Part shown: piece by piece, positions 38,301-60,925 of the stretch
Numbering within the stretch: position 1 is the first letter of the stretch
Layout of the letters: every line of letters begins with the position of its first letter
NCBI GenBank assembly: GCA_951406725.2
Contig: OX597819.1
Location: forward strand, 83,824,001-83,888,000
Direction of reading: 5' to 3'
DNA length: 64,000 nucleotides
Source of the DNA: Octopus vulgaris
Lineage: Eukaryota
The notes under the pieces: model-generated
Database searches by the model: none
The model's input: only the letters and a program-made list of their open reading frames with translations
What the model was told of the DNA's origin: nothing
Translations under genes and position numbers: made by a program

Positions 38301-38317
38301 CATATATATATATATAT

Positions 38318-41300
38318 AACAGATTTTCGAAATCAGCAAATTTATTTTGCTTGAAAATCTATATAAGAAAATCCTGCAGAGAGAGAGTTCGTCGAGGAAG
38401 CGGAGGCCTACCACACGCCGATGATAGGCAATACACCTTGAAACCATGGTCCGTGTGTGGTTTCCGCTTCATCGGGGAATTACCTCCCTTTGCAGGTTTA
38501 GGGCACCGTGACGGTGTCGAGCCTTTCTGGTGACGTCGATGTTCGCCTGGGGCTAAATGCAACAGTAACACCCCCACCACCCTGCCCTGTCCCTAGCCAT
38601 ATTCAGATGGCTTTAGTCCCTTATGTTGTCGAGCAGTTACTGTCTATATTCCTTTTAGAGAATTATTATTGCTTTCGAACAGATTTTCGAAATCAGCAAA
38701 TTTATTTTGCTTGAAAATCTATATAAGAAAATCCTGCAGAGAGAGAGTTCGTCGAGGAAGCGGAGGCCTACCACACGCCGATGATAGGCAATACACCTTG
38801 AAACCATGGTCCGTGTGTGGTTTCCGCTTCATCGGGGAATTACCTCCCTTTGCAGGTTTAGGGCACCGTGACGGTGTCGAGCCTTTCTGGTGACGTCGAT
38901 GTTCGCCTGGGGCTAAATGCAACAGTAACACCCCCACCACCCTGCCCTGTCCCTAGCCATATTCAGATGGCTTTAGTCCCTTATGTTGTCGAGCAGTTAC
39001 TGTCTATATTCCTTTTAGAGAATTATTATTGCTTTCGAACAGATTTTCGAAATCAGCAAATTTATTTTGCTTGAAAATCTATATAAGAAAATCCTGCAGA
39101 GAGAGAGTTCGTCGAGGAAGCGGAGGCCTACCACACGCCGATGATAGGCAATACACCTTGAAACCATGGTCCGTGTGTGGTTTCCGCTTCATCGGGGAAT
39201 TACCTCCCTTTGCAGGTTTAGGGCACCGTGACGGTGTCGAGCCTTTCTGGTGACGTCGATGTTCGCCTGGGGCTAAATGCAACAGTAACACCCCCACCAC
39301 CCTGCCCTGTCCCTAGCCATATTCAGATGGCTTTAGTCCCTTATGTTGTCGAGCAGTTACTGTCTATATTCCTTTTAGAGAATTATTATTGCTTTCGAAC
39401 AGATTTTCGAAATCAGCAAATTTATTTTGCTTGAAAATCTATATAAGAAAATCCTGCAGAGAGAGAGTTCGTCGAGGAAGCGGAGGCCTACCACACGCCG
39501 ATGATAGGCAATACACCTTGAAACCATGGTCCGTGTGTGGTTTCCGCTTCATCGGGGAATTACCTCCTTTGCAGGTTTAGGGCACCGTGACGGTGTCGAG
39601 CCTTTCTGGTGACGTCGATGTTCGCCTGGGGCTAAATGCAACAGTAACACCCCCACCACCCTGCCCTGTCCCTAGCCATATTCAGATGGCTTTAGTCCCT
39701 TATGTTGTCGAGCAGTTACTGTCTATATTCCTTTTAGAGAATTATTATTGCTTTCGAACAGATTTTCGAAATCAGCAAATTTATTTTGCTTGAAAATCTA
39801 TATAAGAAAATCCTGCAGAGAGAGAGTTCGTCGAGGAAGCGGAGGCCTACCACACGCCGATGATAGGCAATACACCTTGAAACCATGGTCCGTGTGTGGT
39901 TTCCGCTTCATCGGGGAATTACCTCCCTTTGCAGGTTTAGGGCACCGTGACGGTGTCGAGCCTTTCTGGTGACGTCGATGTTCGCCTGGGGCTAAATGCA
40001 ACAGTAACACCCCCACCACCCTGCCCTGTCCCTAGCCATATTCAGATGGCTTTAGTCCCTTATGTTGTCGAGCAGTTACTGTCTATATTCCTTTTAGAGA
40101 ATTATTATTGCTTTCGAACAGATTTTCGAAATCAGCAAATTTATTTTGCTTGAAAATCTATATAAGAAAATCCTGCAGAGAGAGAGTTCGTCGAGGAAGC
40201 GGAGGCCTACCACACGCCGATGATAGGCAATACACCTTGAAACCATGGTCCGTGTGTGGTTTCCGCTTCATCGGGGAATTACCTCCCTTTGCAGGTTTAG
40301 GGCACCGTGACGGTGTCGAGCCTTTCTGGTGACGTCGATGTTCGCCTGGGGCTAAATGCAACAGTAACACCCCCACCACCCTGCCCTGTCCCTAGCCATA
40401 TTCAGATGGCTTTAGTCCCTTATGTTGTCGAGCAGTTACTGTCTATATTCCTTTTAGAGAATTATTATTGCTTTCGAACAGATTTTCGAAATCAGCAAAT
40501 TTATTTTGCTTGAAAATCTATATAAGAAAATCCTGCAGAGAGAGAGTTCGTCGAGGAAGCGGAGGCCTACCACACGCCGATGATAGGCAATACACCTTGA
40601 AACCATGGTCCGTGTGTGGTTTCCGCTTCATCGGGGAATTACCTCCCTTTGCAGGTTTAGGGCACCGTGACGGTGTCGAGCCTTTCTGGTGACGTCGATG
40701 TTCGCCTGGGGCTAAATGCAACAGTAACACCCCCACCACCCTGCCCTGTCCCTAGCCATATTCAGATGGCTTTAGTCCCTTATGTTGTCGAGCAGTTACT
40801 GTCTATATTCCTTTTAGAGAATTATTATTGCTTTCGAACAGATTTTCGAAATCAGCAAATTTATTTTGCTTGAAAATCTATATAAGAAAATCCTGCAGAG
40901 AGAGAGTTCGTCGAGGAAGCGGAGGCCTACCACACGCCGATGATAGGCAATACACCTTGAAACCATGGTCCGTGTGTGGTTTCCGCTTCATCGGGGAATT
41001 ACCTCCCTTTGCAGGTTTAGGGCACCGTGACGGTGTCGAGCCTTTCTGGTGACGTCGATGTTCGCCTGGGGCTAAATGCAACAGTAACACCCCCACCACC
41101 CTGCCCTGTCCCTAGCCATATTCAGATGGCTTTAGTCCCTTATGTTGTCGAGCAGTTACTGTCTATATTCCTTTTAGAGAATTATTATTGCTTTCGAACA
41201 GATTTTCGAAATCAGCAAATTTATTTTGCTTGAAAATCTATATAAGAAAATCCTGCAGAGAGAGAGTTCGTCGAGGAAGCGGAGGCCTACCACACGCCGA

Positions 41301-42588
41301 TGATAGGCAATACACCTTGAAACCATGGTCCGTGTGTGGTTTCCGCTTCATCGGGGAATTACCTCCCTTTGCAGGTTTAGGGCACCGTGACGGTGTCGAG
41401 CCTTTCTGGTGACGTCGATGTTCGCCTGGGGCTAAATGCAACAGTAACACCCCCACCACCCTGCCCTGTCCCTAGCCATATTCAGATGGCTTTAGTCCCT
41501 TATGTTGTCGAGCAGTTACTGTCTATATTCCTTTTAGAGAATTATTATTGCTTTCGAACAGATTTTCGAAATCAGCAAATTTATTTTGCTTGAAAATCTA
41601 TATAAGAAAATCCTGCAGAGAGAGAGTTCGTCGAGGAAGCGGAGGCCTACCACACGCCGATGATAGGCAATACACCTTGAAACCATGGTCCGTGTGTGGT
41701 TTCCGCTTCATCGGGGAATTACCTCCCTTTGCAGGTTTAGGGCACCGTGACGGTGTCGAGCCTTTCTGGTGACGTCGATGTTCGCCTGGGGCTAAATGCA
41801 ACAGTAACACCCCCACCACCCTGCCCTGTCCCTAGCCATATTCAGATGGCTTTAGTCCCTTATGTTGTCGAGCAGTTACTGTCTATATTCCTTTTAGAGA
41901 ATTATTATTGCTTTCGAACAGATTTTCGAAATCAGCAAATTTATTTTGCTTGAAAATCTATATAAGAAAATCCTGCAGAGAGAGAGTTCGTCGAGGAAGC
42001 GGAGGCCTACCACACGCCGATGATAGGCAATACACCTTGAAACCATGGTCCGTGTGTGGTTTCCGCTTCATCGGGGAATTACCTCCCTTTGCAGGTTTAG
42101 GGCACCGTGACGGTGTCGAGCCTTTCTGGTGACGTCGATGTTCGCCTGGGGCTAAATGCAACAGTAACACCCCCACCACCCTGCCCTGTCCCTAGCCATA
42201 TTCAGATGGCTTTAGTCCCTTATGTTGTCGAGCAGTTACTGTCTATATTCCTTTTAGAGAATTATTATTGCTTTCGAACAGATTTTCGAAATCAGCAAAT
42301 TTATTTTGCTTGAAAATCTATATAAGAAAATCCTGCAGAGAGAGAGTTCGTCGAGGAAGCGGAGGCCTACCACACGCCGATGATAGGCAATACACCTTGA
42401 AACCATGGTCCGTGTGTGGTTTCCGCTTCATCGGGGAATTACCTCCCTTTGCAGGTTTAGGGCACCGTGACGGTGTCGAGCCTTTCTGGTGACGTCGATG
42501 TTCGCCTGGGGCTAAATGCAACAGTAACACCCCCACCACCCTGCCCTGTCCCTAGCCATATTCAGATGGCTTTAGTCCCTTATGTTGT
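38318..42588 (+). repeat. Head-to-tail array of ~11.9 x 360-bp units (retrozyme-like multimer)
   Basis: Exact 360-bp period. The only difference I see is a 1-bp C deletion in unit 4 (~39567). The last unit is truncated by 48 bp. (TA)n on both sides. Confidence 0.98.
38397..38470 (+). ncRNA. Type I hammerhead ribozyme, first of 12 copies (others start at 38757, 39117, 39477, 39836, 40196, 40556, 40916, 41276, 41636, 41996, 42356)
   Basis: Stem I cacacg(38412-17)/cgtgtg(38452-57), extended by gaagcggaggcc/ggtttccgcttc. Core CCGATGA 38418-24. Stem II agg/cct with loop caataca. GAAA 38440-43. Stem III AC-catg-GT. Predicted cleavage after GUC at 38451. Confidence 0.85.
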
Positions 42589-42608
42589 TATATATATATA
42601 TATTTATA

Positions 42609-60339: not shown

Positions 60340-60925
60340 AGACTTCCTTTTTGTACACCCACCCCCAAACATCCCTTTTTTTTTATTTAATTTTTTTTTT
60401 TCTACACAGACCCCCGTTTTCGGCTCCGGCGAATACGAATCTGCAAAAAAATTGGCAAAAATCGACATTTTGAAATTACCCCTTCCCCTAAATTCTTCAT
60501 TTTAAACTTTTTTTAGAATTTTTTTTTCTTCAAAATATGCGGAAAATATGGAGATTATGAGTCTGAAAAAAAATTTCCAAATTTTTTTTTTTTTGTCAAA
60601 ATATGCGGGGAAAATACAGAGATTATGATTCTGAAAAAAATTTCTAAAAATTTTTTTACTTAGGGTTAGGGTTTTAGGGTTACGGTTACGGTTAGGGTTT
60701 TAGGATTAGGGTTAGGGTTGGGGTTTTAGGGTTACGGTTACGGAAAAAGTGGAAAATGAAGAAATTAGGGCGGAAGGGGATAAGGGGGGGTCAACAAATT
60801 TCAAAATTCCGATTTTTGGCAATTTTCCGGAATCTCCTTATCCAAAAATGTGGGTTTTGGCAACAAAAAATTTTTTTAAACAATAATTTGTGAGAAAATG
60901 GGGGAGGACGGGAGGAAGTTTTTCT
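60340..60925. mobile_element. Inverted-repeat element carrying internal telomere-like repeats
   Basis: aaattggcaaaaatcg...ttttgaaatt pairs with aatttcaaaa...cgatttttggcaattt, and cctaaattcttcatttt with aaaatgaagaaattagg. TTAGGG/TTACGG array at 60660-60743. Confidence 0.65.

What the first reader, a model, noticed from the sequence alone, without database searches (positions are those of the whole stretch)
38318..42588. Near-perfect 360-bp tandem array with a hammerhead ribozyme in every unit: candidate retrozyme-like circular-RNA element
Seen: ~11.9 units that look identical apart from one 1-bp deletion, each with the motif order stem I - CnGAUGA - stem II - GAAA - stem III - GUC - stem I. 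The track shows only short overlapping ORFs there. Established: tandem hammerhead repeats such as newt satellite 2, Schistosoma Sm-alpha and metazoan non-LTR retrozymes are transcribed as multimers that self-cleave to monomers; retrozyme monomers circularise. Inference: a + strand transcript would be cut after 38451, 38811 and so on, giving 360-nt monomers (38452-38811). The array would be a rolling-circle cDNA of such a circle. I do not recognise this family and cannot confirm that it is undescribed.
Basis: partly seen in the sequence, partly recalled or inferred. Interest (0 to 1): 0.93.

Follow-up and report, generated by a model that had tools for sequence, protein, structure and literature searches.

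The report
Young hammerhead retrozyme, Penelope-type insertions
A 360-base non-coding repeat carrying a self-cutting RNA motif has recently been copied as ready-made arrays into TA microsatellites across this animal genome; it is a new member of a known class (animal retrozymes), and the way its copies end suggests that a Penelope-type enzyme copies one RNA circle from two fixed start points at once.

Summary
Confirmed: 11.86 units of 360 bp, 12 type I hammerhead cores (U4C variant, palindromic stem III), flanked by (TA)n. It is one copy of a young, dispersed family. Older relatives show compensatory changes in the ribozyme, including C3-G8/U3-A8. In 63 loci, arms end at two fixed sites 46 nt apart. 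41 of 43 simple two-armed inverted insertions end once at each site, none twice at one site. The genome's autonomous Neptune-type Penelope-like elements follow the same rule. Both arms share locus-private variants in nearly all units. Best reading: an animal non-LTR retrozyme (known class) inserted by Penelope-type target-primed reverse transcription from both DNA ends on one monomer circle. Cleavage, circles and transcription are not shown, no sequence-related autonomous partner was found, and an uncut linear multimer template is not excluded. This scan noted the same insertion pattern for ribozyme-free repeats in two other genomes.

The parts
38318..42588 (+). Single-arm insertion of 11.86 head-to-tail 360-bp units; 5' end at monomer position 227, 3' end at position 178 (start site A). 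Position 1 = base after the predicted cut.
38302..38317 (.). (AT)n target microsatellite, left flank
   Evidence: 102 of 113 arm 3' ends of the family are followed by (TA)n
42589..42603 (.). (TA)n target microsatellite, right flank
38397..38470 (+). First type I hammerhead: C3 at 38418, U4C at 38419, U.U at the base of stem II, palindromic stem III 38443-38450, predicted cut after C 38451; repeated in all 12 units
   Evidence: covariation with relatives
38452..38811 (+). Predicted 360-nt monomer (cut site to cut site), the unit of the proposed RNA circle; 47% G+C, non-coding
38627..38673 (+). 'Tail': stretch between the two fixed arm ends, site A (positions 176-178, 38627-38629) and site B (position 222, 38673); predicted stem-loop with A at its 5' base and B at a bulge near its 3' base
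   Evidence: independent runs hold contigs joining 38673 to (AT)n
38747..38747 (+). Position 296 G, present in 12 of 12 units of this array; A in nearly all other loci (G also fixed in L052)
39532..39890 (+). The one 359-bp unit (one C missing from a C run near position 35; the same loss occurs in single units of L036 and L046, so slippage or a sequencing error)

Best explanation
A non-autonomous animal retrozyme that parasitises a Penelope-like (Neptune-type) reverse transcriptase/GIY-YIG endonuclease. (1) Inferred: tandem copies are transcribed on the + strand, and neighbouring hammerheads pair through the palindromic stem III and cut slowly after C17. A host ligase closes the 360-nt monomer. 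(2) Inferred from shown anatomy: the enzyme, probably a dimer bound to the tail stem-loop of one circle, nicks both strands of a (TA)n or AT-rich target about 11-15 bp apart. It primes from both DNA ends, one at site A and the other at site B. (3) Each cDNA runs round the circle up to about 15 times and stops at a near-random point. The two cDNAs are joined 5'-to-5', giving an inverted two-armed insertion. If one end is not extended, a single arm results, as in this window. Shown: array, motif, covariation, dispersal, target, two fixed ends, one-arm-each rule, shared haplotypes. Not shown: transcription, cleavage, circle, identity of the enzyme.
For: Fixed ends: 105 of 113 arm 3' ends lie at 174-178 or 218-223. 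One-arm-each rule: 17 of 18 simple two-armed loci in the first set and 24 of 25 in a second set fetched afterwards; 0 of 43 are A+A or B+B, the other 2 have one non-standard end; the 4 complex loci also have A and B outer ends. The same long+short rule holds in 7 of 7 classifiable insertions of older family B and in autonomous Neptune-type elements: 4 of 4 two-armed P2 loci and 2 of 2 P1 loci. Two internal start sites bounding a tail, two-strand nicking of AT-rich DNA and a predicted dimer are described for a Poseidon PLE in vitro (PMC11167929). One template: the two arms differ at 14 of 14,173 compared sites against 5,276 of 611,906 between loci. Variants private to one or two loci fill whole arrays: window 12/12, L043 9/9, L048 8/8, L050 6/6, L145 6/6, L143 13/14, L046 19/21. 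No excess of 5' ends within 10 nt of the cut site (6 of 99, p=0.47), so the template is continuous there. A-arms stop just short of site B more often than B-arms do (positions 219-240: 11 of 53 vs 2 of 46, Fisher p=0.018, scan p=0.033), and this window's array is such a case. Selection on RNA: 7 of 17 hammerhead pairs change on both sides among 17 related sequences, with C3-G8 (5) versus U3-A8 (10). The stem III palindrome is kept in different letters. Array-wide variants at paired sites keep the pair in 8 of 11 cases against 31 of 94 single-unit changes (p=0.018). The lowest-energy fold of two adjacent units contains the inter-unit stem III.
Against: U4C, a U.U closing pair and a 2-bp stem III predict weak cleavage; U4C 'considerably decreases activity in vitro' (PMC3088659). 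The active single-hammerhead fold is 7.4 kcal/mol above the local minimum. In the Anolis PLE the ribozyme was dispensable and uncut RNA was the main template in vitro, and 8 of 9 Xenopus retrozyme dimers did not cleave. In 3 of 13 two-armed loci with single-unit substitutions in both arms (L046, L156, L159) the same change occurs in both arms, and L133 repeats a pattern five units apart. A pure monomer template does not explain this without later conversion or multimer templates. No autonomous element with a related terminal sequence was found, unlike 24 of 57 Xenopus families. The loci are the top-scoring 63 of several hundred candidates, so they are biased to young copies with at least one full unit. 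The stop-near-B excess was seen after the fact and includes two junctions at a short palindrome.
Confidence: 0.68

Rival explanations
1. Same Penelope-type two-site priming, but the template is a long uncut linear multimer transcribed from an existing array. The attenuated ribozyme is largely idle and no circle is needed.
For: Weak core (U4C). Ribozyme dispensable for a PLE in vitro. Single-unit variants shared by both arms in L046, L156 and L159. In L046 the two 304A units lie 316 nt apart in distance from their start sites, which fits one variant unit in one long template (arithmetic).
Against: Needs parents at least as long as the daughters, with a new variant already in every unit, yet 8 sampled loci carry rare variants across 6-21 units. 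Most single-unit changes are not shared between arms (10 of 13 informative loci) and none recurs in the same register at another locus. Arrays would shorten each generation.
Confidence: 0.22
2. A satellite: short PLE-terminal-repeat-like seeds were inserted, then each locus expanded locally by unequal crossing over (the scenario discussed in bioRxiv 10.64898/2026.07.22.740005).
For: Explains array-wide private variants and the five-unit repeat pattern in L133. Older family B copies have arms under 1.5 units, so array length does change with time or family.
Against: Requires independent expansion of both arms at dozens of loci (24 of 113 arms exceed 5 units) while loci still differ by under 1%. 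Does not predict the excess of A-arm stops next to site B.
Confidence: 0.08
3. Assembly or consensus artefact producing a near-perfect array.
For: Units are almost identical, and the exact copy number here was not checked with long reads.
Against: 63 loci with distinct junctions, flanks and private haplotypes. Four independent public runs hold the head-to-tail joint, and two hold the site-B/(AT)n junction.
Confidence: 0.02

Closest known systems
Animal non-LTR retrozymes (coral, Mytilus 350-390 bp, axolotl 330/350 bp; Cervera and de la Pena 2020, PMC7229834)
   Same: Tandem 150-450 bp non-coding units, one type I hammerhead per unit, G+C under 50%, target duplications over 4 bp, self-paired predicted circle. 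U.U at the base of stem II as in axolotl HHR_Amex2; palindromic stem III loop as in HHR_Amex1.
   Different: U4C core. RNA circles were shown there and are not shown here. The parts of that paper read here (parts 2-4 of 6 plus passages; supplement not readable) report no fixed ends, inverted two-armed insertions or microsatellite targeting, and the main text names no cephalopod.
Penelope-like elements, Neptune and Poseidon clades (Craig 2021, PMC8557442; Frangieh 2024, PMC11167929)
   Same: Inverted 5'-truncated partner arm, tail at one end, (TA)n bias, two internal start sites, hammerhead with palindromic stem III upstream of the tail. The genome's own P1 (781 aa) and P2 (775 aa) show the same end rule, and P2 also has U4C and U.U.
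   Different: No RT or endonuclease ORF. Tail is 46 nt rather than 30-40. Up to 15 units per arm instead of partial tandems. No sequence match to any sampled autonomous terminal repeat. Frangieh saw no difference in start site between strands in bulk, whereas here each insertion uses one site per end.
Vertebrate retrozymes as PLE derivatives (Li, Clavereau, Pollet, bioRxiv 10.64898/2026.07.22.740005)
   Same: Proposes PLE enzymes mobilise retrozymes.
   Different: Their evidence is co-occurrence and terminal-repeat homology, with local satellite-type amplification discussed. Here the evidence is insertion anatomy, and homology to an autonomous element was not found.
L1 twin priming (recalled, no call)
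   Same: Both nicked DNA ends prime on one RNA, giving an inverted 5' arm.
   Different: L1 primes first at the poly(A) end and second at a variable internal site on a linear RNA. Here both sites are fixed and internal, and both arms can be multimers.

Membership tests
Animal non-LTR retrozyme | Tandem units of about 150-450 bp, dispersed in many loci | tested here: met
   360 bp; 342 and 262 unit matches in two searches that scored 40 of 681 and 40 of 582 candidates
Animal non-LTR retrozyme | Type I hammerhead fold in every unit | tested here: met
   12 of 12 cores; stems covary among relatives
Animal non-LTR retrozyme | Canonical catalytic core (CUGANGA) | tested here: inconclusive
   U4C in this family; U4 in families B and C. 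U4C is a known natural, weaker variant. No Rfam hit, but canonical relatives are missed too
Animal non-LTR retrozyme | Non-coding, no LTR architecture | tested here: met
   Longest frame 98 aa; no tRNA gene in the window; array abuts (TA)n directly. PBS and PPT were not searched for.
Animal non-LTR retrozyme | G+C below 50% | tested here: met
   169 of 360 = 47%; above the '<45%' given in the same paper's introduction
Animal non-LTR retrozyme | Target-site duplication longer than 4 bp when visible | tested here: met
   11-15 bp at L033, L054, L131, L132, L145, L153; hidden in pure (TA)n at most loci; none found at 5 loci
Animal non-LTR retrozyme | Highly self-paired monomer | tested here: met
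   z -4.9 (circular, 60 shuffles); z -5.9 (linear, 0 of 100 shuffles as good)
Animal non-LTR retrozyme | Self-cleavage of multimer transcripts | not testable with these tools
   Needs in vitro assay
Animal non-LTR retrozyme | Expressed as linear and circular monomer RNA | tested here: inconclusive
   Closed 390-nt contigs (360 plus overlap) in two runs only guessed to be RNA; tandem DNA gives the same
Penelope-like element (autonomous) | ORF with RT and GIY-YIG endonuclease | tested here: not met
   No ORF; not filed as an autonomous PLE
PLE-mobilised non-autonomous element | [quoted passage not shown] | tested here: met
   Sites 176-178 and 222; 41 of 43 simple two-armed loci use one each
PLE-mobilised non-autonomous element | Inverted 5'-truncated arm; microsatellite target bias | tested here: met
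   47 of 63 loci two-armed; 102 of 113 3' ends followed by (TA)n
PLE-mobilised non-autonomous element | Sequence homology to the terminal repeat of an autonomous PLE | tested here: not met
   No match in 52 GIY-YIG loci taken from the 148 listed matches nor in 19 3' regions aligned locally (several cut short by microsatellites). The one hit, in L117, is a separate neighbouring insertion. Other PLE families were not sampled.

The most novel reading that the evidence does not exclude
One asymmetric Penelope-type enzyme dimer sits on one ribozyme-made RNA circle and primes from both ends of a staggered DNA break, one active site at each of two fixed RNA positions, both running rolling-circle. This single mechanism would explain the PLE tail, the inverted partner arm and the tandems. 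In addition, A-to-I edits in that one circle would be written into every unit of the new array: 5 of 11 rare array-wide variants are A>G on the RNA strand, all in stems, against 13 of 139 single-unit changes (p=0.004), this window's 296G among them. The editing part is weak (A>G vs T>C 5:2, p=0.17; selection for pairing also favours A>G) and I put it at about 0.2 on its own; the probability given is for the single-circle two-site mechanism.
Probability: 0.45. Interest if true: 0.8.

Novelty: new member of a known kind. Interest (0 to 1): 0.6.

Why it matters
The class is known, but how retrozymes get into DNA is still a proposal (PMC7229834, PMC7761336, PMC4209133), and the origin of PLE tandem/inverted insertions and tails is called undefined (PMC8557442). 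This family is so young, and its unit so short, that each insertion records many rounds of copying. It gives a near-absolute rule (one end per start site), a one-template signature and a stall next to the second site. With two intact, near-identical Neptune-type proteins in the same genome, the proposed cycle can be tested in a tube with a 360-nt circle and a (TA)n duplex. It may also be an active source of multi-kilobase inverted insertions in microsatellites of this animal.

Tried and rejected
Rfam: no hammerhead hit for the window or for two relatives; uninformative. Expression: no RNA holder listed. Three runs guessed to be RNA cover the monomer, two as one closed contig, but they also hold genomic junction contigs, so neither transcription nor circles follow. 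Autonomous partner: not found by sequence among sampled GIY-YIG loci. A tail match in L117 looked like a partner but is a separate insertion about 800 bp downstream of the P2 element. Viroid-like or viral origin: a conserved 25-base pattern has 0 exact matches in metagenome and viral contigs; no second ribozyme was noticed on the minus strand, though no dedicated scan was run. Coding role: rejected. tRNA-derived SINE: no tRNA gene found. Linear monomer template with template jumping: disfavoured because 5' ends are not enriched at the cut site. Arm lengths do not differ between A and B (median 917 vs 885, p=0.56). No other copy lies in the window. Look-ups of this scan by place and by sequence were empty.
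Full report
OBSERVATION. The array is real as described: 38318-42588, period 360, 11.9 copies, 12 hammerhead cores, 10 of 11 complete monomers identical and one 359 bp. Positions below count from the base after the predicted cut (position 1 = 38452). The array starts at position 227 and ends at 178, with (TA)n on both sides. The monomer folds far better than shuffles (z -4.9 circular; z -5.9 linear) and has no coding frame above 98 aa.

THE RIBOZYME. Type I topology with three departures: C for U at core position 4, a U.U pair closing stem II, and a 2-bp stem III inside the palindrome ACCAUGGU. Rfam misses it and also misses two relatives with normal cores. Two older related families (B, C; about 75-85% alike) were found beside other copies. 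Across 17 distinct related hammerheads, 97.9% of cells pair and 7 of 17 pairs change on both sides (0 of 500 shuffles reach this; slid controls pair 22-47%). The core C3-G8 pair swaps to U3-A8 in 10 sequences. The sequences are related and the structure was drawn from them, so this is support, not a probability. The stem III palindrome is kept in different letters, and the lowest-energy fold of two adjacent units pairs the two palindromes, the double-hammerhead arrangement described for newt and PLE ribozymes (PMC4209133, passages; PMC6765202, passages). U4C lowers activity in vitro yet allows viroid infectivity (PMC3088659, passage). It also occurs in unrelated hammerheads of this genome, including the youngest autonomous element. 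Activity was not measured.

THE FAMILY. Two searches of the own genome gave 342 and 262 unit matches from 40 scored candidates each, out of 681 and 582. I examined the window plus 26 loci from the first list and 36 new loci from the second, 63 in all; they are biased to young copies. Result: 43 simple two-armed insertions (a minus arm and a plus arm joined 5' to 5'), 4 complex two-armed, 16 single-armed. 105 of 113 arm 3' ends fall at 174-178 (site A) or 218-223 (site B), and 102 of 113 are followed by (TA)n. In 41 of 43 simple two-armed loci one arm ends at A and the other at B (17 of 18, then 24 of 25 in the set fetched after the rule was noticed). None is A+A or B+B; two have one non-standard end. 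Independent choice would give about 0.5^41. The 4 complex loci also have A and B outer ends. 5' ends are spread round the unit, and junctions mostly show 0-10 nt overlap. Target duplications of 11-15 bp are visible at six loci with non-uniform targets, and none was found at five loci. Family B obeys the same rule in 7 of 7 classifiable insertions among 19 distinct loci.

THE ENZYME. These are Penelope-like signatures: an inverted truncated arm, a tail at one end and (TA)n bias (PMC8557442, passages). The tail equals the stretch between two internal reverse-transcription start sites, with both strands of AT-rich DNA nicked and a dimer predicted (PMC11167929, parts 1-2 of 4). The genome holds young autonomous elements: P1, a 781-aa ORF with RT, a CxxxxCxxC linker and GIY-YIG (Neptune-type by that order, per PMC8557442), and P2, with a 775-aa frame and 76 of 76 scored matches 100% identical. 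Both insert in (TA)n, carry a hammerhead before a tail, and show long+short ends in 4 of 4 (P2, of 12 loci) and 2 of 2 (P1, of 12 loci) two-armed cases. Neither, nor any other sampled family, resembles the 360-bp unit in sequence. The partner is therefore unidentified.

THE TEMPLATE. The two arms of an insertion differ at 14 of 14,173 sites (33 of 44 loci identical), against 5,276 of 611,906 between loci. Rare variants fill whole arrays and both arms, including position 296 G in 12 of 12 units here. This is what copying one monomer many times gives. 5' ends are not enriched at the cut site (6 of 99), so the template is continuous there. A-arms stop at 219-240, just short of site B, in 11 of 53 cases against 2 of 46 B-arms (p=0.018; scan-corrected 0.033; post hoc, two at palindromic junctions), as if the second enzyme on the same molecule were in the way; the window's array is one such case. 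Array-wide variants keep base pairs more often than single-unit changes (8 of 11 vs 31 of 94, p=0.018). Two mis-aligned arms (in L047 and L049) were left out. Against: 3 of 13 informative loci share a single-unit change between arms, and L133 repeats a five-unit pattern, which points to later conversion or occasional multimer templates. In the Anolis PLE, uncut RNA was the main template in vitro. Expression could not be shown. The A>G excess among rare array-wide variants (5 of 11 vs 13 of 139, p=0.004; strand test p=0.17) hints at RNA editing of the template, but selection for pairing could produce it.

COMPARISON AND NOVELTY. It works like, and passes the testable structural features of, animal non-LTR retrozymes (PMC7229834, parts 2-4 of 6 and passages; its supplement could not be read, and may list cephalopod repeats). 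PLE mobilisation and a circular template are already proposed (bioRxiv 10.64898/2026.07.22.740005, parts 1-3 of 5; its supplements were not seen). Eight literature searches showed no paper on a cephalopod retrozyme, or on a one-end-per-site rule or shared-haplotype evidence; most hits were seen as listings only. A 2026 octopus repeat annotation lists recently active Penelope families and has no 'hammerhead' or 'retrozyme' in its main text (PMC13282606, passages); its library was not seen and may hold this unit unnamed. 'Tail at one end' is known descriptively, so the rule is a sharpening, not a new phenomenon. Two earlier notes of this scan report the same insertion pattern for ribozyme-free, tRNA-bearing repeats in other genomes (unchecked). 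If right, they would mean a hammerhead is not required for such arrays.

VERDICT. New member of a known kind (class assignment about 0.9; full mechanism 0.68). Interest 0.6: not a new class, but an unusually clean record of the unresolved Penelope/retrozyme insertion cycle, with a short RNA and intact candidate enzymes that make it directly testable.

Noticed in passing
L165-L173, L117-L119 (G000, e.g. C14:47995581-47997302): Very young Neptune-type Penelope-like family P2: 775-aa frame, 76 of 76 scored matches 100% identical in protein, U4C hammerhead, about 27-nt tail, (TA)n target.
   Followed up: partly
L097-L108: Neptune-type family P1 with intact 781-aa ORF; its hammerhead has the U3/A8 core variant and a palindromic stem III; the upstream terminal repeat runs through the tail into the 5' region, i.e. 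a circularly permuted layout.
   Followed up: partly
L057-L076; L044:9130-9691; L035:9380-9804: Older sister families B and C (2,607 and 3,159 first-look candidates) with U4 cores, the same two ends, and (family B) arms under 1.5 units; loose ends in public runs suggest further sisters sharing positions 70-165.
   Followed up: partly
L081:200, L125:1693, L044:6923, L123:2081, L115:4424: Several other unrelated hammerhead-like motifs turned up by chance in flanks, so the genome holds many such families.
   Followed up: no
window 60660-60743: Short interstitial TTAGGG-like repeat.
   Followed up: no
window 38359-38366 (unit positions 268-275): TATA-like stretch about 50 nt upstream of the hammerhead core, kept as a TA-rich stretch in family B; could be the unit's promoter, untested.
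   Followed up: no
L136 and L138 (C6:40.78 Mb and C6:1.83 Mb): Two single-arm insertions with identical 5' and 3' positions and length (58 to 176, 2.33 units); perhaps one event duplicated.
   Followed up: no
L159 (C2:57287800-57297200): A cluster of four linked substitutions (positions 48-56) recurs in single units of both arms; unexplained, possibly conversion or a multimer template.
   Followed up: partly
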